From Candidatus Methylomirabilia bacterium (lineage in GTDB: Bacteria; Methylomirabilota; Methylomirabilia; Rokubacteriales; CSP1-6), in the NCBI GenBank assembly GCA_041492755.1, contig JBGPXN010000004.1, forward strand, positions 1,373 through 65,372: a stretch of DNA of 64,000 nucleotides, given 5' to 3'. Below the pieces are notes generated by a model. That model was not told the DNA's origin. It did no database searches and saw only the letters and a program-made list of their open reading frames with translations. The translations under genes were made by a program, and so were the position numbers. How positions within the stretch are numbered: position 1 is the stretch's first letter; each line of letters starts with the position of its first letter. Of the stretch, positions 1,046 to 55,124 are shown in pieces.

Positions 1046-1158
1046 GTCGTCGACCCCATCAGGGCTGACGCCGCGCGACCTTCGCGGCGCCGAACCTTGA
1101 CGGAGAGCCCGCTCCTCGGGCTATGATGCAGCCCACTTCCTGGGAGGAGATGAGAATC

Positions 1159-3144
1159 ATGGCGGACGCCCCGCGCAGTAGTGCAACGGCCGAGCCTTTC
1201 CGGACGACCGATCAGCCGGCACCGCCGTGCATCCTCGTGATTTTTGGCGCTTCCGGTGACCTGACCAAGCGCCTGCTCATGCCCGCTCTGTACAATCTGG
1301 CCTGCGACGGCCTGCTCTCCAAGAAGTTCGCGCTGATCGGCACCGCGATGGACGACCTGACCACCGAGCAGTTTCGTAGCAAGATGTCGACCGACATCAA
1401 GCAGTTCTCGACGCGCAAGACCTTCGACGAGGACGTCTGGAAGGACCTCGCCGGCCGCTTGCACTACACCCCCGGCAAGTTCGACGACGTCAAGGCGTAC
1501 GAGAAGCTGCGCGACATCATCAAGCGGCTCGACGCCGAGCAGGACACCGGCGGCAACATCGTCTACTACTTCGCGACGCCGCCGGTGGTGTTCGGCATGA
1601 TCTCCGACCACCTCGCCAAGGTCGGCATGATCGCCGGTGATCGCGGCTGGCGGCGGGTCATCGTCGAGAAGCCGTTCGGCGCCGACCTGCCGTCGGCGAT
1701 GGAACTGAACAAGGTCCTCCTCAAGAACTGGAAAGAGGAGCAGATCTTCCGGATCGACCACTACCTGGGCAAGGAGACCGTGCAGAACCTCCTCGCCTTC
1801 CGCTTCTCCAACGGGATCTTCGAGCCGTTGTGGAACAAGGCCCACATCGACCACATCCAGTTCACCGTCTCGGAGATCGTCGGCGTGGAGGGACGCGGCG
1901 GCTACTACGAGCGGTCGGGCGTGCTGCGGGACATGATGCAGAACCACATGTTCCAGATGCTGGCCTACCTGTGCATGGAGCCGCCGTCCTCCTTCAAGCC
2001 GGACGCGATCCGGAACGAGAAGTCGAAGGTCCTCGACGCCGTGCGGGTGATGACTCCCGACGAGGTCAGGCAGAACACCGTGCGCGGGCAGTACGGCCCG
2101 GGCAAGAAGGCGGACGGCAAGGACACGGTCGGCTACCGCGAAGAGTCGGACGTCAATCCCCAGTCCCGGACGGAGACGTTCGCGGCCGCGAAGCTCTTCA
2201 TTGACAACTGGCGCTGGGAGGGGGTGCCGATCTACCTCCGCTCCGGCAAGGCGCTCTGGCGGCGCGGCACGGAGATCCTCGTGCAGTTCAAGAAGGCGCC
2301 CGAGGTCATCTTCCGCGACACGCCGGCCGTGCGGAAGCTGGAGTCCAACCAGATCATCTTCCACATCCAGCCCGACCAGGGGATCGAGCTGCGCTTCCAG
2401 GCCAAGACGCCGGGCCCGACCATGGCGCTGCAGAAGGTGAACATGCGGTTCGACTACAAGGAGGCCTTCGAGGCCTCGCGCGGCACCGGCTACGAGGTGA
2501 TGATCTACAGCTGCATGGCCGGCGACGCGATGCTCTTCTCCCGTAGCGACCTCGTGGAGACCGCGTGGCGGATCGCGCAGCCCATGCTCGACCTCTGGAG
2601 CAAGACGCCGGCGGACGAGTTTCCGAACTATCCGGCGGGGTCGTGGGGGCCCAAGGCATCGTTCGATCTCATCGAGCGCGACGGCCGGCGGTGGATGGAG
2701 GCCGTCAACCGCGGCGTGATCGAGAAGGTGCCGCTCTTCGCCGGCTGCGACGAGGTGTTCCATCACCAGCTCGCCATGGTGCTCAAGCCCGACGTCTTCG
2801 CGCCGGGGGATTTCATCATCAGAAAGGGTGACGTCGGGCAGGAGATGTACTTCGTGGTCGGCGGCGACGTGGATGTGCTCGACGGCGACAAGGTGCTCGC
2901 CACCCTGGGCCCGGGCAGCAACTTCGGTGAGACAAGCCTGCTGCTTTCCGAGAAGCGCACCGCGTCCATCCGCGCCAAGACCTACTGCGACCTGTTCGTG
3001 CTCGACAAGGCCGATTTCAACAAGGTGCTCCGCGATCATCCGCAGTTCGCCAAGTCGATTCTCGAGATCGCGCAGACGCGCTACAAGGTCAGCGTCAAGG
3101 CCGACCAGGCCTTCGACAAGACCGTCAGCCGCTTGATGGAGTAG
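1159..3144 (+). CDS. zwf: glucose-6-phosphate dehydrogenase fused to a C-terminal cyclic-nucleotide-binding domain
   Basis: GGGAGGAG RBS then ATG 1159. G6PD motifs FGASGDLTKR and RIDHYLGKE. From about nt 2728 a cNMP-binding fold: VPLFAGC..., GDFIIRKGD, FGETSLL..KRTASIRA. Confidence 0.9.
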   Translation: MADAPRSSATAEPFRTTDQPAPPCILVIFGASGDLTKRLLMPALYNLACDGLLSKKFALIGTAMDDLTTEQFRSKMSTDIKQFSTRKTFDEDVWKDLAGRLHYTPGKFDDVKAYEKLRDIIKRLDAEQDTGGNIVYYFATPPVVFGMISDHLAKVGMIAGDRGWRRVIVEKPFGADLPSAMELNKVLLKNWKEEQIFRIDHYLGKETVQNLLAFRFSNGIFEPLWNKAHIDHIQFTVSEIVGVEGRGGYYERSGVLRDMMQNHMFQMLAYLCMEPPSSFKPDAIRNEKSKVLDAVRVMTPDEVRQNTVRGQYGPGKKADGKDTVGYREESDVNPQSRTETFAAAKLFIDNWRWEGVPIYLRSGKALWRRGTEILVQFKKAPEVIFRDTPAVRKLESNQIIFHIQPDQGIELRFQAKTPGPTMALQKVNMRFDYKEAFEASRGTGYEVMIYSCMAGDAMLFSRSDLVETAWRIAQPMLDLWSKTPADEFPNYPAGSWGPKASFDLIERDGRRWMEAVNRGVIEKVPLFAGCDEVFHHQLAMVLKPDVFAPGDFIIRKGDVGQEMYFVVGGDVDVLDGDKVLATLGPGSNFGETSLLLSEKRTASIRAKTYCDLFVLDKADFNKVLRDHPQFAKSILEIAQTRYKVSVKADQAFDKTVSRLME

Positions 3145-10993: not shown

Positions 10994-11383
10994 ATGGACA
11001 AAGCCACGGAAGCGCGGACAACCACGGAAGCGCGGATTCAAGCGGAGCTCGACGCCGAGCTCGACGCCGTGCTGGTGCGTCTGCGGCAGCTCGGGCAGGC
11101 GATCGCGGTCGAGGCCGAAACCACCGACAGCCTCGACCTCGCTGGCGATCTCTTCGACAACGCGCAGGCGGTGGAGACGCGCGAGCTGGGTCAGCTCGGA
11201 GTCGCGCGGCTCACCGAGCGGGCGCGTCGTCTGAAGACGGCGTTGGTCCGGCTGCAGGAGGGCGTCTACGGTCGGTGCGAGGAATGCGGGAAGCCGATCC
11301 CGCCGGCGCGGCTGCGCGCCATCCTCGGCGTCGCGACGTGCGTGGTGTGCCAGGAGGCGCTCGAGAGAGCCGGCGGCCGCTGA
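10994..11383 (+). CDS. TraR/DksA-family C4 zinc-finger protein
   Basis: C-terminal CEECGKPIPPARLRAILGVATCVVC (C-x2-C-x17-C-x2-C) after a coiled-coil region. Confidence 0.8.
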   Translation: MDKATEARTTTEARIQAELDAELDAVLVRLRQLGQAIAVEAETTDSLDLAGDLFDNAQAVETRELGQLGVARLTERARRLKTALVRLQEGVYGRCEECGKPIPPARLRAILGVATCVVCQEALERAGGR

Positions 11384-11456
11384 GCGACCTCGCGGGTGGC
11401 ATTCCCGCGCGCCATGCCGTATCCTGCTCGGAACCCCGCGTTATGAGGAGGAACGG

Positions 11457-11702
11457 ATGCCGCCGTCGGTGACCGTCTACAGCAACGTCGGGTGAGGGCC
11501 CTGCCATCGCGCGATGGAGTATCTATCGCGAAAAGGTGTCGCTTTCACCGAGAAGAACGTCGGTAAGGACCCGCAGGCCCGGCAGGAGCTGATGGAGCTC
11601 GGGACGCTGTCGTTGCCCGTGATCCTCATCGGTGACGCGCGCTTGACCGGCTTCAACCCCGGTCAGATCGACGCGGCGCTCACGGCGGCCGGCATCGGAT
11701 GA
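11457..11702 (+). CDS. glutaredoxin-like protein with probable selenocysteine (U-G-P-C redox motif, TGA at 11493..11495)
   Basis: GAGGAGG (11445-11451), 5 nt, ATG 11457, then MPPSVTVYSNVG-TGA-GPCHRA, which runs in frame into track ORF 11514..11702 (MEYLSRKGVAFTEKNV...). The track ORF alone lacks strand beta-1 and the CxxC motif. Confidence 0.7.
11504..11517 (+). promoter_or_regulatory. candidate SECIS-like hairpin 3' of TGA 11493
   Basis: CCATC-GCGC-GATGG (5-bp stem, 4-nt loop) starting 8 nt after the TGA. It is short, so support is weak. Confidence 0.35.
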
Positions 11703-12118
11703 GTGACGCGCCGGCCGGCCCCTCGCAGGCGAACATCGACAAGATGTGGGCGTACGCGCGCAAGTACGCCGAGAAGTCCGGCACCCAGCTGCATCCCGAT
11801 CGCAACGTGACCCAGACGGTGGCCGAGGGGCTCGCGCGCCACATCGAGCTGGTGGGCAAGCCGCTGTGCCCCTGCGTCTTCTATCCCGATCCCAAAGAAG
11901 AGGCGAAGCAGCGGCGATGGGTCTGCGCGTGCGACGAGATGCAGAATTACAAGTATTGCCACTGCCTGCTGTTCGTGAACAAGGACGGTGTTCCCATCAC
12001 GGAATACCTGCCCGAAGGCCACGAAGGCCGCGAAGCGTACGGCATCGTCAAGGATCCCAACCCTGAGCGGGGTCGAGGGATGGCAAAGGTGCGCGAGCGG
12101 CAGCAGGCGTCCGGCTAG
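11699..12118 (+). CDS. ferredoxin:thioredoxin reductase catalytic-subunit-like protein
   Basis: Exact Cys spacing CPC-X16-CAC-X8-CHC (CPCVFYPDPKEEAKQRRWVCACDEMQNYKYCHC). Its ATG overlaps the glutaredoxin-like stop (ATGA). Confidence 0.85.
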   Translation: MSDAPAGPSQANIDKMWAYARKYAEKSGTQLHPDRNVTQTVAEGLARHIELVGKPLCPCVFYPDPKEEAKQRRWVCACDEMQNYKYCHCLLFVNKDGVPITEYLPEGHEGREAYGIVKDPNPERGRGMAKVRERQQASG

Positions 12119-16001: not shown

Positions 16002-16550
16002 TCAGGCTCTCTGGAGCTTCGGCATGACCTCGCGGGCGAACGCGCCGAGTTGCTCGAGCATGACCGACTTCGGCGTGCCCATGTCGACCTGCTCTTCGAA
16101 CAGCTCGCGGTTGGCGTCGGCGTCCAGCATGGGGGCGCCGAACGTCTCGACCTCGCGGGTGTGATAGCCGCGGCCCACCCCGAAGATGGTGCGGCCGCCG
16201 GTCAGGATGTCGGCGGTGGCGTAGTCCTCGGCGAGGCGCAACGGGTGCCACATCGGCGTGATGTTGAAGCCGCAGCCGAATTTGAGCCGCCGCGTCACGT
16301 GCGAGAGGTGGACGGCGACCATGAGGATGTTGGGGATCGCCTCGTAGCCCTCGTGCTGGAAGTGATGCTCGGCGAGCCAGAGCGCGTAGTACCCCAGATC
16401 GTCCATCGTGCGGGCGAGGGCCTCGGTCTTCTCGAATACGGACGCCAGGTGCTCGTTCGAGTACCGCCGCTCGTTGGCCGGGGTGGCGTCCTGGCCCATG
16501 TCGCCGAGGTCGACGTGGCCGGCATAGAGGGTGGAGAACTTGGTGATCAT
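16002..16550 (-). CDS. luciferase-like (LLM) flavin/F420-dependent oxidoreductase, abnormally short (apparent internal in-frame deletion)
   Basis: The N-terminal ~155 aa are typical LLM (YYALWLAEHHFQHEGYEAIPN, GGRTIFGVGRGYH). The sequence then jumps to a typical LLM C-terminal tail (GTPKSVMLEQLGAFAREVMPKL). 182 aa against my expected ~330-370. Confidence 0.6.
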   Translation of the reverse strand: MITKFSTLYAGHVDLGDMGQDATPANERRYSNEHLASVFEKTEALARTMDDLGYYALWLAEHHFQHEGYEAIPNILMVAVHLSHVTRRLKFGCGFNITPMWHPLRLAEDYATADILTGGRTIFGVGRGYHTREVETFGAPMLDADANRELFEEQVDMGTPKSVMLEQLGAFAREVMPKLQRA

Positions 16551-49818: not shown

Positions 49819-50364
49819 ATGACGAGATCACGGGAACGATACGGTATTCTCGGGGCAATGCTCGGCATGGTCGTCGGGGCAATGGTGGTGTTCGCGTCGT
49901 TGGCCGGGGGGCAAGCGTTGCGCCTCGGGACACCCGCGCCGGAGATCGCCGGGGCGCCGTGGGTGAATTCGCCACCGCTCACCACGGCTGTCCTCCGCGG
50001 ACGCGTGCTGTTCGTCGAGTTCTGGACGTACGGCTGAATCAACTGCAAGAACGTGATCCCGCAGTTGCGGGACTGGCACGAGCGGTATGCGGGGGAAGGG
50101 CTCACCATCGTCGGTGTGCATTCGCCCGAGTTCGCGGGGGAGAAGCGCTGGGACAGCGTGGTGGAGGCGACGCGCCAGCTGGGCATCCGATACGCGGTCG
50201 TGCAGGACAACGACTTTGCGATCTGGAAGCGGTTCGGCGTGCGCGCGTGGCCGACGGGGGTGCTCGTCGATCGCAAAGGGATCCTCCGGTATCGCCACAT
50301 CGGCGAAGGGGAGTACGAGGAGACGGAGGCGATGATTCGCCGGCTCCTCGGCGAGCGCGGGTAG
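49819..50364 (+). CDS. membrane-anchored TlpA/DipZ-like thioredoxin-fold redoxin with probable selenocysteine (U-I-N-C, TGA at 50035..50037)
   Basis: GGGAGG, 6 nt, then ATG 49819. A TM segment ILGAMLGMVVGAMVVFASL, then VLFVEFWTYG-TGA-INCKNVIPQL, continuing in frame into track ORF 50053..50364 (GLTIVGVHSPEF...WPTGVLVDRKG). Confidence 0.75.
50057..50072 (+). promoter_or_regulatory. candidate SECIS-like hairpin 3' of TGA 50035
   Basis: TCCCGC-AGTT-GCGGGA (6-bp stem, loop containing GU) starting 19 nt after the TGA. Confidence 0.4.
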
Positions 50365-50378
50365 TCGGGCGCGTCGGC

Positions 50379-51194
50379 ATGCGCGTGTTCTGGCGTCGGA
50401 TCGTCTTGAACGAGCCACCGTCCCCACCGGAAGCGGTCAGCGAAGACGTGGCGGAGGAGCTGCAGCGCCGGCTCCTCCGGCTCGTCGCCGTTCACTCGAC
50501 CGGAGATCGCCCTGTGGATTACGCCGCGCTCCGGACGTCGGCGGACTTCCGCGGGGTCGAGGCCTGCGCCCGGCGCCTGGTCCACCTCGATCCCCGGACG
50601 CTTGGCTCCCGTGAGAGGCGGCTGGCATTCTGGATCAACCTCTACAACGCGCTCGTGCTGCACGGAATCGTCGCCCTCGGCGTGCGCCGCTCGGTGTGGG
50701 AGGTGTGGAACTTCTTCGGGCGCGTGAGCTACCACGTCGGCCCGTTCGTCCTCACCGTGGACGAGATCGAGCACGGGATCCTGCGCGGCAACCGCCGGCG
50801 CCGCCTGCCGCCGCGCGTCCCGTTCCGCTCGGGCGATCCGCGTCGCGCCCTCGTGCTCGACCCCGTCGAGCCGCGCATCCACTTTGCCGTCAACTGCGGC
50901 TCGCGCTCGTGCCCGCCCGTCGCCGTCTACCGCGCCGACGTGCTCGAGGCCCAGCTTGATCTCGCCACCCGGGGGTTTCTCAATGAGGAGGTCAAGCTCG
51001 ATGCGCGCGGCCGCGTCGAGTGCTCGCGCCTGCTGAAGTGGTACGGCGGCGACTTCGACGCGGCCGGCGGCCTCGCGTCGTTCCTGCTGCGTCATCTGGA
51101 CGACGGACCGGCGCGCGCGGCGCTGGCGGCCGGGGCCGCCCCGTGCCAGGTATTCAGGCCGTACTCCTGGTCCGTGGGCCACCGCGTTGCGTGA
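50379..51194 (+). CDS. DUF547-domain protein
   Basis: RLAFWINLYNALVLHG, VDEIEHGILRGN, IHFAVNCGSRSCPP, LKWYGGDF. Confidence 0.8.
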   Translation: MRVFWRRIVLNEPPSPPEAVSEDVAEELQRRLLRLVAVHSTGDRPVDYAALRTSADFRGVEACARRLVHLDPRTLGSRERRLAFWINLYNALVLHGIVALGVRRSVWEVWNFFGRVSYHVGPFVLTVDEIEHGILRGNRRRRLPPRVPFRSGDPRRALVLDPVEPRIHFAVNCGSRSCPPVAVYRADVLEAQLDLATRGFLNEEVKLDARGRVECSRLLKWYGGDFDAAGGLASFLLRHLDDGPARAALAAGAAPCQVFRPYSWSVGHRVA

Positions 51195-53425: not shown

Positions 53426-54382
53426 ATGCTGATCCGTAAAGCGCCGCGCTTCAAGTCGTCCGAGATCACCGACGAGCGCGTCTACCTGGACCGCCGCACG
53501 TTCATGGCCGGTACGGCCGCGCTCGTGCTGGGTGGCGGTGAGGCCCTCGCCGCCACCCCGCCCGCGCCGCTGGCGCCGCTCAAGGCCGCGCGCAGCGAGG
53601 CGTTCAGCGTCAAGGAGCCGGCCACCAAGGAAGAGAGCGCGACGACCTACAACAATTTCTACGAGTTCGGCGTCAACAAGGAGGATCCCTCCCGTCTCGC
53701 GCACACGCTGCGGACGCGGCCGTGGACGGTGAAGGTGGAGGGATTGGTCGGCAAGCCGAAGACGTTCGACATCGACGAGCTGATCCGGCTGTTCCCGCTC
53801 GAAGAGCGGGTCTACGCGCTCCGCTGTGTCGAAGCGTGGTCGATGATCATCCCGTGGATCGGCTTCCCGCTCGCCTCGCTGCTCAAGCGGGTGGAGCCTA
53901 CCAGCCAGGCGAAGTTCGTCGAATTCACCACGTTGCAAGATCCAGAACAGTTCCCCGGGCAGAAACCCGGGCTGTTCGGGATGTCGTCCCTCGACTGGCC
54001 CTACATCGAAGGCTTGCGCCTGGACGAGGCCCTCCACCCACTCACGCTCCTTACGGTCGGCATGTACGGCAGGATGTTGCCCAACCAGAACGGGGCGCCG
54101 GTGCGGGTCGTCATTCCGTGGAAGTACGGGTTCAAGAGCGCGAAGTCGATCGTGCGGATCCGGGTGGTGGCCGATCAGCCCAAGACCGCGTGGGAGAAGG
54201 CGTCGCCGCAGGAATACGGGTTCTACTCCAACGTCAACCCGAACGTGAGCCATCCGCGCTGGAGCCAGGCCACCGAGCGTCGGATCGGCGAGTTCCGCCG
54301 CCGCAACACGCCTATGTTCAACGGCTACGCCGACCAGGTCGCGTCGCTCTACACGGGGTTGGACCTCAAGAAGTTCTATTGA
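53426..54382 (+). CDS. msrP: protein-methionine-sulfoxide reductase, molybdopterin catalytic subunit
   Basis: Tat signal [14 protein letters not shown]. Motifs [35 protein letters not shown]. Confidence 0.9.
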
Positions 54383-54385
54383 GAT

Positions 54386-54469
54386 CATGGGGGGCCTCGA
54401 GATGGCCTCCCATACCCCCCCACTGCTCGGAAGCGCCCCGGCGCAGCCGTGGCGCTCCTCGATCTCCGG
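54386..54469 (+). repeat. GC-rich palindromic intergenic repeat, family A, copy 2
   Basis: Aligns with the reverse complement of 4128..4210. Starts 4 nt after the msrP stop. Confidence 0.75.
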
Positions 54470-54470
54470 G

Positions 54471-55124
54471 GTGTCGCGGGTGACGCGTCGGGGACGCATC
54501 GTCCTCAAGACGGCGGTGTGGGTGGGCGCCCTCGCGCCGCTCGGCTGGCTCCTCTATCGCACGGCCACCGATCGGCTCGGCGCGAATCCGATCGACGAGA
54601 TCACCGACCGCCTCGGCGACTGGACGCTGCGGCTCCTGCTCGTCTCACTGACCATGACCCCACTGCGCCTGCTGTTCGACCTGTCCTGGCCGGTGACGCT
54701 GCGCCGGCTCCTCGGGCTCTTCGCGTTCTTCTACGCCTCACTGCACCTCTCGGTCTGGATGGTGCTCGACCACTTCTTCGACTGGCCGACCATGGGCGCC
54801 GACGTCGTCAAGCGCCCGTACATCACCGTGGGCATGACCGCGCTGCTGCTGTTGATCCCGCTCGCGGTCACCTCGACCACCGGCATGATCCGCCGCCTCG
54901 GCGCGCGCGCCTGGCGGCGGCTGCACCGCCTGGTGTACCTCGCCGCCATCGCGGCCGTGCTGCACTACCTCTGGCTGGCCAAGGTCGGCGTGCTCGATCC
55001 CTACTGGTACGCGGCGGCGTTGGTCGTGCTCCTCGGCGTCCGCGGGTGGGACGTCGCGCGCCGCGCCGTACGCCGGCGGCGGGGCCGGTCAGTGCCGGGC
55101 GTTTCCTCGCCGGCCACGCCGTGA
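54471..55124 (+). CDS. msrQ: protein-methionine-sulfoxide reductase heme-binding membrane subunit
   Basis: ANPIDEITDRLGDWTLRLLL, the FAFFYASLHLSVW His ligand, and LHRLVYLAAIAAVLHY. The GTG 54471 start was chosen to exclude the repeat. Confidence 0.85.
   Translation: MSRVTRRGRIVLKTAVWVGALAPLGWLLYRTATDRLGANPIDEITDRLGDWTLRLLLVSLTMTPLRLLFDLSWPVTLRRLLGLFAFFYASLHLSVWMVLDHFFDWPTMGADVVKRPYITVGMTALLLLIPLAVTSTTGMIRRLGARAWRRLHRLVYLAAIAAVLHYLWLAKVGVLDPYWYAAALVVLLGVRGWDVARRAVRRRRGRSVPGVSSPATP

What the first reader, a model, noticed from the sequence alone, without database searches (positions are those of the whole stretch)
11457..11702. Glutaredoxin-like gene with an in-frame TGA at the first Cys of CxxC: probable selenoprotein missed by ORF calling
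The track ORF (11514..11702) begins at an internal Met. It lacks both an RBS and the redox motif. In the same frame upstream, a strong RBS (GAGGAGG) and ATG 11457 give MPPSVTVYSNVG-[TGA]-GPCHRAMEYL... This is the beta1-loop-CxxC-alpha1 layout of glutaredoxin/NrdH-like proteins, with U-G-P-C in place of C-x-x-C. A small hairpin follows the TGA. A second gene in this window (49819..50364) shows the same arrangement, which argues against a random nonsense mutation.
Basis: partly seen in the sequence, partly recalled or inferred. Interest (0 to 1): 0.7.

Follow-up and report, generated by a model that had tools for sequence, protein, structure and literature searches.

The report
Missed selenocysteine glutaredoxin-like redoxin gene
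A small redox protein gene uses a UGA "stop" codon to insert selenocysteine at its active site; every public gene caller truncated it, but it belongs to an already known kind of selenoprotein.

Summary

**The gene.** It runs 11457..11702 (+) and encodes an 81-aa glutaredoxin/NrdH-like redoxin. An in-frame TGA (11493-11495) occupies the first position of the C-x-x-C motif, giving U-G-P-C.

**Evidence that the TGA is real and recoded:**
- It is present in 10 of 10 independent assemblies.
- It is conserved in 76 of 80 orthologous loci, mainly Rokubacteria/Methylomirabilota and Entotheonella/Tectomicrobia. The other four have TGC or TGT in that column.
- An 8-bp hairpin with a G-U-A loop starts 15 nt after the TGA. 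It pairs in all 68 distinct sequences and shows compensatory changes. It is built from codons that are otherwise very rare in this genome. It meets the published bacterial SECIS criteria.

**Gaps.** No selA, selB, selC or selD lies in the window. Sec decoding in this genome is therefore inferred, supported by phylum-level literature.

**Function.** The overlapping downstream gene is a Cys-type ferredoxin:thioredoxin-reductase catalytic subunit. It sits next to the redoxin in 64 of 80 loci and is probably its reductant (inferred).

**Novelty.** Sec-glutaredoxin is a known family. The closest solved structure, Clostridium oremlandii cGrx1, is natively a selenoprotein with Sec at the same residue. 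This is a new, systematically mis-annotated member of a known kind, of moderate interest.

The parts
11445..11451 (+). Shine-Dalgarno sequence GAGGAGG, 5 nt upstream of the true start codon
   Evidence: Read directly from the sequence.
11457..11702 (+). Full selenoprotein gene: an 81-aa NrdH/YruB-like glutaredoxin-fold redoxin with a U13-G-P-C16 active site. The stop is TGA 11700-11702.
   Evidence: Translation. Pfam Glutaredoxin PF00462, E 2.4e-14, covers residues 5-60 and so spans the TGA. The N-terminal peptide is conserved in 76 TGA-containing orthologs.
11493..11495 (+). Sec-UGA codon (residue 13), at the first position of the CxxC motif
   Evidence: Aligns with Cys in P0001, P0096, P0011, L082, L085, L086 and L088. 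Present in 10 of 10 assemblies. Aligns with residue 13 of the native selenoprotein cGrx1, PDB 7C10.
11503..11537 (+). bSECIS-like element. Lower helix: 11503-11505 pairs with 11535-11537. Upper helix: 11511-11518 pairs with 11522-11529, plus C11510-G11530 in this sequence. Apical loop G-U-A at 11519-11521, 23 nt after the UGA.
   Evidence: The upper helix is 100% paired in 68 distinct sequences. Pair 23-33 is UA:38, CG:27, AU:2, UG:1, and G-C in the Anaerolineae forms. The lower helix is 94% paired. Codons in the stem are rare in this genome: CTA 0.5% of Leu, ACA 1.3% of Thr, GTA 0.4% of Val. Energy is -11.3 to -15.1 kcal/mol.
11514..11702 (+). The truncated 62-aa ORF that public gene callers annotate instead (an artefact of stopping at the Sec-UGA)
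   Evidence: ORF list. The exact 62-aa product is held in NCBI, JGI, ENA and Logan. All 12 members of its cluster are 62 aa, and those that carry a name are called 'glutaredoxin'.
11699..12118 (+). Cys-type ferredoxin:thioredoxin reductase catalytic-subunit homolog (FTRc). Its start overlaps the redoxin stop (ATGA). It is the probable reductant of the selenoredoxin.
   Evidence: Pfam FeThRed_B PF02943, E 2.3e-23. CPC-x16-CAC-x8-CHC aligns with the solved FTR catalytic chains 1DJ7, 2PVG and 7BZK. It is adjacent to the redoxin in 64 of 80 loci.
49819..50364 (+). Second selenoprotein gene in the window: a membrane-anchored TlpA/ResA-like redoxin with a U-I-N-C site. TGA is at 50035-50037. The hairpin is 50057-50062/50067-50072 with loop AGUU at 50063-50066.
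   Evidence: Translation. Pfam Thioredoxin_8, AhpC-TSA and Redoxin. In related loci the column holds TGA 52 times and TGC 9 times; the hairpin is invariant in Sec forms and degraded in Cys forms. Hairpin energy is -10.2 kcal/mol.

Best explanation
The gene at 11457..11702 encodes an 81-residue selenoprotein. It is a glutaredoxin-fold, NrdH/YruB-like redoxin whose attacking active-site residue is selenocysteine (U13-G-P-C16).

How the Sec is inserted: during translation, the UGA at 11493 is read as Sec because the mRNA folds directly downstream into an 8-9 bp stem with a G-U-A loop (11510-11530). SelB carrying Sec-tRNASec binds this hairpin. The second TGA of the same gene (11700) has no such hairpin and terminates translation.

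How the protein probably works: once made, it cycles between a selenol/thiol form and a selenenylsulfide form. The most likely reductant is the product of the overlapping downstream gene. [quoted passage not shown] The reduced selenoredoxin then reduces unidentified disulfide or sulfenate targets.

Shown here: the conserved TGA/Cys pair, the coding conservation on both sides of the TGA, the SECIS-like structure with covariation, the fold and position of the Sec, and the gene linkage.

Inferred: actual Sec insertion, presence of selABCD in this genome, electron flow from ferredoxin through FTRc to the redoxin, and the targets.
For: **Gene and frame**
- RBS, ATG and the in-frame TGA are as described.
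- The Pfam glutaredoxin match spans the TGA, covering residues 5-60.
- The AlphaFold model of the 76%-identical Cys form has the order b1-a1-b2-a2-b3-b4-a3, with residue 13 at the N-cap of helix a1 (pLDDT 85).

**The TGA is real and conserved**
- It occurs in 10 of 10 independent assemblies, across two haplotypes.
- It occurs in 76 of 80 genome loci from several phyla, with the conserved upstream peptide xxVTVYxNxG. Cys codons occupy the same column in four loci and in P0001, P0096 and P0011.
- Most database homologs are 50-63-aa truncations. One 'Trp' form is TGA translated with the wrong table.

**SECIS**
- It meets all four published criteria: 3-nt loop, 8-9 bp stem, G in the first loop position followed by U, 23-nt spacing, and MFE of -11.3 kcal/mol or lower.
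- It is 100% paired in 68 distinct sequences, against 21-48% for slid registers.
- Pair 23-33 takes the forms UA, CG, AU and UG, plus GC in Anaerolineae.
- The residue-20 codon (AUG, ACA, GUA, AAA) co-varies with the synonymous Leu codon (CUA, CUG, CUA, CUU).
- These are among the rarest codons in the window.

**TGA is the ordinary stop here**
- 33 of 56 provisional gene calls end in TGA, including this gene itself.

**Independent second selenoprotein gene in the window**.

**Phylum uses Sec**
- A Methylomirabilota MAG is predicted to carry 63 selenoprotein genes (PMC13188914). Sec-type hydrogenases also occur in Methylomirabilota (PMC13582414).

**Reductant**
- FTRc has all six Cys and the His of the FTR active site.
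- It overlaps the redoxin stop by 4 nt.
- It is adjacent in 64 of 80 loci. It is co-directional and tightly packed in 54. It is convergent in 10, mostly Entotheonella/Tectomicrobia MAGs by their record titles. The linkage therefore survives rearrangement.
- U-G-P-C is the thioredoxin-type motif that FTR normally reduces (established knowledge; FTR background in PMC9025218).
Against: - No tRNA-Sec, SelA, SelB or SelD was found in the 64-kb window, in 10 kb upstream of it, or in the fetched loci. The tRNA scan covered 60 of the 80 genome loci and the SelD probe all 80. Sec decoding in this particular genome is therefore not directly shown.
- No Rfam family matched.
- The single-sequence fold z-score is modest (-1.99).
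- The protein is below the curated cut-off of every NCBIfam glutaredoxin-like model, including the selenoprotein ones.
- For the FTRc partnership: 15 related loci also carry a TrxB-like flavoprotein directly upstream. An NADPH-dependent reductant is therefore an alternative or additional donor.
- No ferredoxin gene and no FTR variable subunit was identified next to the pair.
- Gene adjacency is not biochemical proof.
Confidence: 0.9

Rival explanations
1. The UGA plus SECIS directs insertion of cysteine rather than selenocysteine. This would occur through a SelB-dependent tRNA of the tRNA-ReC (SelC*) type, so the mature protein would carry C-G-P-C.
For: Such tRNAs exist and decode SECIS-directed UGA as Cys (Vargas-Rodriguez et al. 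2018, as summarised in PMC13582414). Nothing in the window shows which tRNA reads the codon.
Against: In that survey tRNA-ReC-like genes were enriched in genomes with UxxU-type genes and were rare (about 2.3%) in other Sec-type genomes. The closest characterised relative, cGrx1, natively contains Sec at the same residue. Methylomirabilota are reported to be selenoprotein-rich.
Confidence: 0.04
2. The TGA is a nonsense mutation or sequencing error. The gene is either a pseudogene or a 62-aa protein starting at Met 11514 without a redox site.
For: All public annotations call the 62-aa ORF. ATG 11514 is an available start codon.
Against: The TGA is identical in 10 of 10 assemblies and conserved in 76 of 80 loci across phyla. 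The 12 codons upstream are under purifying selection and preceded by a proper RBS. There is no RBS before 11514. A 62-aa product would lack strand b1 and the active site of the fold. The hairpin is maintained by compensatory changes and rare codons.
Confidence: 0.01
3. The organism uses a genetic code in which UGA is a sense codon (Trp or Gly, tables 4 or 25), so the residue would be W or G.
For: One JGI record (P0002) translates the codon as W.
Against: TGA ends 33 of 56 provisional gene calls in the window, including this gene itself 207 nt downstream. The scan for in-frame TGAs flanked by coding signal found only gene ends apart from the second selenoprotein gene. GC content is 69%, unlike known code-4 or code-25 lineages (the lineage comparison rests on general knowledge).
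Confidence: 0.01
4. The selenoprotein call is right, but the reductant is not FTRc. The redoxin would be reduced by an NADPH-dependent thioredoxin reductase, as NrdH-redoxins are, and FTRc would serve another substrate.
For: A TrxB-like flavoprotein gene lies directly upstream of the redoxin in 15 related loci. NrdH-redoxins, which are structural neighbours, are reduced by thioredoxin reductase (established knowledge).
Against: No TrxB-like gene was found among the annotated genes of this window. FTRc is linked in 64 of 80 loci against 15 for TrxB, and overlaps the redoxin gene here.
Confidence: 0.3

Closest known systems
Selenoprotein glutaredoxin cGrx1 of Clostridium (Alkaliphilus) oremlandii OhILAs (PDB 7C10; Kim et al. 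2011, as cited in PMC13188914 and PMC7642778)
   Same: Same fold: Foldseek TM 0.85-0.91, rmsd 0.9 A, 40% identity with the modelled Cys homolog P0001. It is also the best sequence hit in the PDB (E 3e-12, gap-free alignment of residues 3-74). Sec is natively at the first position of U-x-x-C, residue 13 in both proteins. Both are small proteins of about 80 aa.
   Different: The active site is U-G-P-C (thioredoxin type) rather than U-P-H-C. cGrx1 is described as glutathione-recycled and as the reductant of a Sec-MsrA. Here no MsrA gene was found in the window, and the conserved neighbour is an FTR catalytic subunit. The lineage also differs (Rokubacteria/Tectomicrobia rather than Clostridia).
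NrdH-redoxins (E. coli 1H75, M. tuberculosis 4HS1/4F2I, C. glutamicum 4FIW) and the YruB family (TIGR02196)
   Same: They are the next-best structural and sequence neighbours. They have a glutaredoxin fold but thioredoxin-like behaviour. The C-terminal L-T-G-F-N-P here resembles the NrdH W-S-G-F-R-P motif (the motif is recalled from memory; the sequence was read directly).
   Different: Scores are below the curated cut-offs: NrdH 54.2 against 85.75 bits, and YruB 71.9 against 88.55 bits. The site is U-G-P-C rather than C-V-Q-C. No ribonucleotide reductase genes lie nearby. Those proteins contain Cys, not Sec.
Ferredoxin:thioredoxin reductase system (FTR catalytic chain plus thioredoxin) and archaeal ferredoxin:disulfide reductase with an NrdH-like redoxin (Wei et al. 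2015, cited in PMC11846895)
   Same: The neighbour gene has the complete CPC-x16-CxC-x8-CHC active site of FTR catalytic chains. A small C/U-G-P-C redoxin is encoded next to it, matching the pairing of an FTR-type enzyme with a small redoxin.
   Different: No FTR variable subunit or ferredoxin gene was seen. The organism is non-photosynthetic. The substrate would carry Sec at the attacking position. The partnership is inferred from gene linkage only.
NCBIfam 'Uxx-star' glutaredoxin-like selenoprotein families (NF041212, NF041114, NF041211, NF047338)
   Same: They are glutaredoxin-like selenoproteins, and this protein gives weak matches to them.
   Different: All scores are far below the cut-offs (42.6 against 66, 21.8 against 72, 27 against 100, and 28.7 against 97 bits). 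This protein reaches none of the curated selenoprotein models.

Membership tests
Bacterial selenoprotein gene | In-frame UGA that aligns with Cys in homologs (Sec/Cys pair) | tested here: met
   U13 aligns with the first Cys of CGPC, CPAC and CPYC in P0001, P0096 and P0011, and with TGC/TGT in L082, L085, L086 and L088.
Bacterial selenoprotein gene | Coding conservation on both sides of the UGA, and TGA-containing orthologs in other organisms | tested here: met
   76 of 80 genome loci keep the TGA and the upstream peptide xxVTVYxNxG. 10 of 10 assemblies of the same gene keep it.
Bacterial selenoprotein gene | bSECIS downstream of the UGA: 3-9 nt loop, 4-16 bp upper stem, G in the first two loop positions, 16-37 nt spacing, MFE of -7.5 kcal/mol or lower (PMC13188914, Fig. 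2 legend) | tested here: met
   The loop is GUA (3 nt), the stem is 8-9 bp, G is the first loop base followed by U, the spacing is 23 nt, and the energy is -11.3 kcal/mol. Covariation and rare-codon evidence support it.
Bacterial selenoprotein gene | Genome encodes selA, selB, selC (tRNA-Sec) and selD | not testable with these tools
   None was found in the window, its upstream 10 kb, or the fetched loci; the tRNA scan covered 60 of the 80 genome loci. Indirect support comes from a second selenoprotein gene in the window and from phylum-level literature.
Bacterial selenoprotein gene | Selenium demonstrated in the protein | not testable with these tools
   This needs 75Se labelling or mass spectrometry.
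Glutaredoxin family (Pfam PF00462) | Profile match above the gathering threshold, and a thioredoxin fold with the active site at the N-terminus of helix a1 | tested here: met
   53.7 bits against a 22.9-bit cut-off, covering residues 5-60. The model has the order b1-a1-b2-a2-b3-b4-a3 with residue 13 at the a1 N-cap.
Classical glutathione-dependent glutaredoxin (GRX_bact TIGR02181) | Curated equivalog score; C-P-Y-C-type site and glutathione-binding residues | tested here: not met
   44.2 bits against a 90-bit cut-off. The site is U-G-P-C. Glutathione-binding residues were not examined individually.
NrdH-redoxin (TIGR02194 / NF007657) | Curated score; C-V-Q-C site; linkage to nrdEF | tested here: not met
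   54.2 against 85.75 bits, and 39.6 against 131 bits. The site is U-G-P-C. No RNR genes appear in the window annotation.
YruB-family glutaredoxin-like protein (TIGR02196) | Curated hypothetical-equivalog score | tested here: not met
   This is the best NCBIfam hit, but 71.9 bits is below the 88.55-bit cut-off. It is the nearest named family, not a formal member.
FTR catalytic subunit (neighbour gene 11699-12118) | PF02943 match, six Cys plus His in CPC...CxC...CHC, and a partner variable subunit | tested here: inconclusive
   The profile match (82.7 bits) and the full Cys/His motif are met. No variable-subunit (FeThRed_A) match was found among the ORFs annotated in the window. The [4Fe-4S] cluster and activity were not tested.

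The most novel reading that the evidence does not exclude
The Sec-redoxin and the FTR catalytic-subunit homolog form a dedicated two-gene ferredoxin-dependent 'selenoredoxin' system. It would be conserved across Rokubacteria/Methylomirabilota and Entotheonella/Tectomicrobia. Here the selenium sits in the small redoxin substrate (U-G-P-C) rather than in the reductase. An iron-sulfur disulfide reductase would resolve a selenenylsulfide. This would be a thioredoxin-system variant that I did not find described in the papers searched.
Probability: 0.4. Interest if true: 0.55.

Novelty: new member of a known kind. Interest (0 to 1): 0.35.

Why it matters
**Annotation.** This is a clear case of systematic mis-annotation. 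Of the 120 best homolog clusters listed, most are 50-63-aa N-terminally truncated products, and those that are named are mostly called 'glutaredoxin' or 'hypothetical protein'. No curated NCBIfam model reaches its cut-off for this protein. Automated pipelines will therefore keep missing this selenoprotein in soil and groundwater Rokubacteria and in Tectomicrobia. A dedicated model, made of the protein profile plus the very conserved SECIS, would recover it.

**Biology.** It adds a widespread, strongly conserved selenoprotein to lineages already reported to have very large selenoproteomes. The conserved linkage to an FTR-type iron-sulfur reductase gives a testable hypothesis for how a selenoredoxin is recharged in non-photosynthetic bacteria.

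**Limits.** It does not change what is known about Sec decoding, and the protein family (Sec-glutaredoxin) is already established.

Tried and rejected
- **Rfam at gathering thresholds on the window:** no hit, so no curated SECIS or tRNA-Sec model fired.
- **ARAGORN on the window and on 60 related loci:** no tRNA-Sec.
- **Pfam annotation of about 60 window ORFs:** no SelA, SelB or SelD.
This is a weak negative, because the query is from memory and only a few kb per genome were searched.
- **Reaching the rest of the 86-kb source contig:** the upstream 10 kb holds transporter, TPP-enzyme and CoA-transferase genes only. The downstream attempt found no record.
- **Window-wide scan for further in-frame TGAs flanked by coding signal:** apart from the second selenoprotein gene it returned only ordinary gene ends. 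Its filters also did not recover the 11493 TGA itself, so a Sec codon with a short upstream segment could have been missed.
- **Handing the U-to-C edited window protein to structure prediction:** The 76%-identical natural Cys form P0001 was modelled instead.
- **Primary papers on Sec-Grx (Kim 2011) and on FDR/NrdH (Wei 2015):** not held. I relied on papers that cite them.
- **Pseudogene, sequencing error and alternative genetic code:** considered and rejected (see the rival explanations).

Full report
**1. The observation.**
- The sequence reads GAGGAGG (11445-11451), a 5-nt spacer, ATG (11457), twelve sense codons, TGA (11493-11495), and then an open frame to a second TGA at 11700-11702.
- The mechanical ORF list holds only the 62-codon ORF 11514..11702, which starts at the internal Met.
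- Read through, the product is MPPSVTVYSNVG-U-GPCHRAMEYLSRKG..., 81 residues long.
- Pfam's Glutaredoxin model (PF00462) matches residues 5-60, profile positions 1-57 of 60, at E 2.4e-14. The domain therefore begins upstream of the TGA.
The only adjustment is that the RBS sits at 11445-11451.

**2. The TGA is not an error or a private mutation.**
- The exact 62-aa C-terminal product occurs on 16 contigs. The ten I could read come from ten different samples and fall into two haplotypes. All ten have TGA at the same place with the same upstream frame.
- A scan of one genome per species returned 80 loci. Most are Rokubacteria/Methylomirabilota and Entotheonella/Tectomicrobia. A few are labelled Nitrospinota, Acidobacteria, Binatota or Anaerolineae.
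- 76 of these loci carry an in-frame TGA at the first position of the x-x-C motif, preceded by a conserved peptide (xxVTVYxNxG). L082, L085, L086 and L088 carry TGC or TGT there.
- Full-length database homologs have Cys in that column: P0001 CGPC, P0096 CPAC, P0011 CPYC.
- Among the 120 best protein clusters, most are 50-63-aa truncations.
- One record with 'W' at the site is TGA translated with a wrong table; its DNA reads GGC TGA GGG.
- TGA is the ordinary stop codon in this genome. It ends 33 of 56 provisional gene calls, including this gene itself. A reassigned genetic code is therefore excluded.

**3. The hairpin is a SECIS-type element under selection.**
- Counting from the U of UGA, positions 19-26 pair with 30-37 (window 11511-11518 with 11522-11529), around a G-U-A loop (11519-11521). 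A short lower helix pairs 11-13 with 43-45.
- In 68 distinct sequences the upper helix is paired in 100% of cells, against 21-48% when the 3' partner is slid by 1-3 columns.
- Pair 23-33 occurs as UA (38), CG (27), AU (2) and UG (1). Pairs 22-34 and 24-32 switch between AU and GU.
- The divergent Anaerolineae forms keep a hairpin in the same register with a different stem, GAGAGA-GUU-UCUCUC. This makes pair 23-33 G-C.
- The covariation links a non-synonymous site to a synonymous one. The residue-20 codon is AUG, ACA, GUA or AAA, and the Leu codon opposite is CUA, CUG, CUA or CUU respectively.
- These codons are among the rarest in the window: CTA 0.5% of Leu, ACA 1.3% of Thr, GTA 0.4% of Val, TAT 11% of Tyr. 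Yet they are fixed in the stem.
- The element fits every constraint of the published bacterial SECIS model: loop 3-9 nt, stem 4-16 bp, G in the first two loop positions, 16-37 nt spacing, and MFE of -7.5 kcal/mol or lower (PMC13188914). Here the values are 3 nt, 8-9 bp, G first then U, 23 nt, and -11.3 kcal/mol.
- Two distant Cys-form loci have no comparable hairpin (L082 -2.2 and L085 -0.1 kcal/mol). The other two (L086, L088) fold into GC-rich hairpins; the L088 loop (UACUUU) has no G in its first two positions, and I did not check L086 against the criteria.
- The close Cys form P0001/L171 still carries the intact hairpin, which suggests a recent Sec-to-Cys change.

**4. The second gene.**
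- 49819..50364 encodes a membrane-anchored TlpA/ResA-like redoxin with FWTYG-U-INC (TGA 50035-50037).
- In 80 metagenome loci the column is TGA 52 times and TGC 9 times. My pattern did not locate the motif in the other 19.
- The hairpin UCCCGC-AGUU-GCGGGA (50057-50072) is invariant in Sec forms and degraded in Cys forms.
- So this contig carries two independent, conserved Sec/Cys pairs with SECIS-like hairpins. This is the best in-window evidence that the organism decodes Sec.

**5. What could not be shown.**
- No tRNA-Sec, SelA, SelB or SelD lies in the window, in the 10 kb upstream of it, or in the fetched loci; the tRNA scan covered 60 of the 80 genome loci.
- The literature reports that Methylomirabilota include a MAG with 63 predicted selenoprotein genes (PMC13188914) and Sec-type hydrogenases (PMC13582414).
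- Sec decoding in this genome therefore remains an inference, though a strong one.
- A SELB-dependent Cys-inserting tRNA (tRNA-ReC) is a formal alternative.

**6. What the protein is.**
- The model of the 76%-identical Cys form has the glutaredoxin topology, with residue 13 at the N-cap of helix a1.
- Its best structural and sequence match is Clostridium oremlandii cGrx1, PDB 7C10 (TM 0.85-0.91, gap-free alignment of residues 3-74). NrdH-redoxins come next.
- cGrx1 is natively a selenoprotein with Sec at the first position of U-P-H-C, residue 13 (PMC7642778).
- Sec-glutaredoxin (PF00462, UxxC) has been listed as a selenoprotein family since the mid-2000s (PMC2398784; PMC13188914).
- The window protein differs in having the thioredoxin-type U-G-P-C site and an NrdH-like L-T-G-F-N-P segment.
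- It is below the curated cut-offs of all NCBIfam glutaredoxin-like models. The best is YruB, at 71.9 against 88.55 bits.

**7. How it probably works.**
- The downstream gene (11699..12118) overlaps the redoxin stop codon (ATGA). It is a Cys-type FTR catalytic-subunit homolog. Its CPC-x16-CAC-x8-CHC aligns with the solved enzymes.
- It is adjacent to the Sec-redoxin in 64 of 80 loci. In 54 loci it is co-directional, with gaps of roughly -20 to +74 nt. In 10 it is convergent, mostly in Entotheonella/Tectomicrobia MAGs by their record titles. The linkage persists through rearrangement.
- FTR reduces C-G-P-C thioredoxins through a mixed disulfide with the first Cys. This is established knowledge; the FTR background is in PMC9025218.
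- By analogy, ferredoxin electrons would pass through the [4Fe-4S]/disulfide centre of FTRc to the U-G-P-C selenenylsulfide. This step is inferred.
- Other recurrent neighbours are a CMD/AhpD-like gene (27 loci) and a TrxB-like flavoprotein directly upstream (15 loci). An NADPH-dependent route is therefore a live alternative, and peroxide or disulfide stress defence is a plausible role.

**8. Verdict.** It is a new and systematically mis-annotated member of a known selenoprotein kind, with a moderately interesting, untested link to an FTR-type reductase.

Noticed in passing
window 49819-50364 (TGA 50035-50037; hairpin 50057-50072): Second selenoprotein gene: a membrane-anchored TlpA/ResA-like redoxin with a U-I-N-C site. 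In related metagenome loci the column is TGA 52 times and TGC 9 times, and the hairpin is kept only in the Sec forms. All public callers would split or truncate it.
   Followed up: yes
window 50400-51191 and 53426-55121: A DUF547 gene directly follows the second selenoprotein gene. An MsrP/MsrQ-like pair (molybdopterin oxidoreductase plus ferric-reductase-like membrane protein) lies about 3 kb further on. This may be a periplasmic redox-repair neighbourhood.
   Followed up: no
L171 57-299 (protein P0001): A 76%-identical homolog has TGC (Cys) instead of TGA but keeps the intact SECIS hairpin GCGGUAGA-GUA-UCUAUCGC and the FTRc neighbour. This looks like a very recent Sec-to-Cys conversion, leaving a 'fossil' SECIS.
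   Followed up: partly
L172 3-239 (P0002); proteins P0004, P0005, P0006: The JGI record translates the Sec-TGA as Trp. Three protein-level-assembled 'src' records carry S, R or W at the Sec column, all one nucleotide away from TGA. They may have been assembled from rare error reads that bridge the stop. The src cases were not verified.
   Followed up: partly
L087, L089, L090 (Anaerolineae MAGs): Distant homologs have a U-Q-E-C-C site and a different stem (GAGAGA-GUU-UCUCUC) in the same register after the TGA. No FTRc gene lies within 4 kb.
   Followed up: partly
L011-L081 (e.g. L070 2219-2767; L018 2585-3544): Recurrent neighbours of the Sec-redoxin/FTRc pair are a CMD/AhpD-like gene 0.7-1.4 kb downstream (26 of 27 loci that have it; in L056 it lies upstream) and a TrxB-like flavoprotein disulfide reductase directly upstream (15 loci).
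   Followed up: partly
window 1123-3141 (+): A glucose-6-phosphate dehydrogenase is fused to a C-terminal cyclic-nucleotide-binding domain, and is followed by a tandem universal stress protein. This is an unusual architecture.
   Followed up: no
window 16005-16550 (-): A luciferase-like monooxygenase ORF of 182 aa matches only profile positions 20-132 of 314. It may be a truncated gene, a pseudogene or a frameshift.
   Followed up: no
window 10994-11383 (+): A DksA/TraR-type zinc-finger gene lies 73 nt upstream of the redoxin start codon on the same strand. It is conserved only in the closest relatives (11 hits: the window and L001-L010), so it is probably not part of the module.
   Followed up: partly
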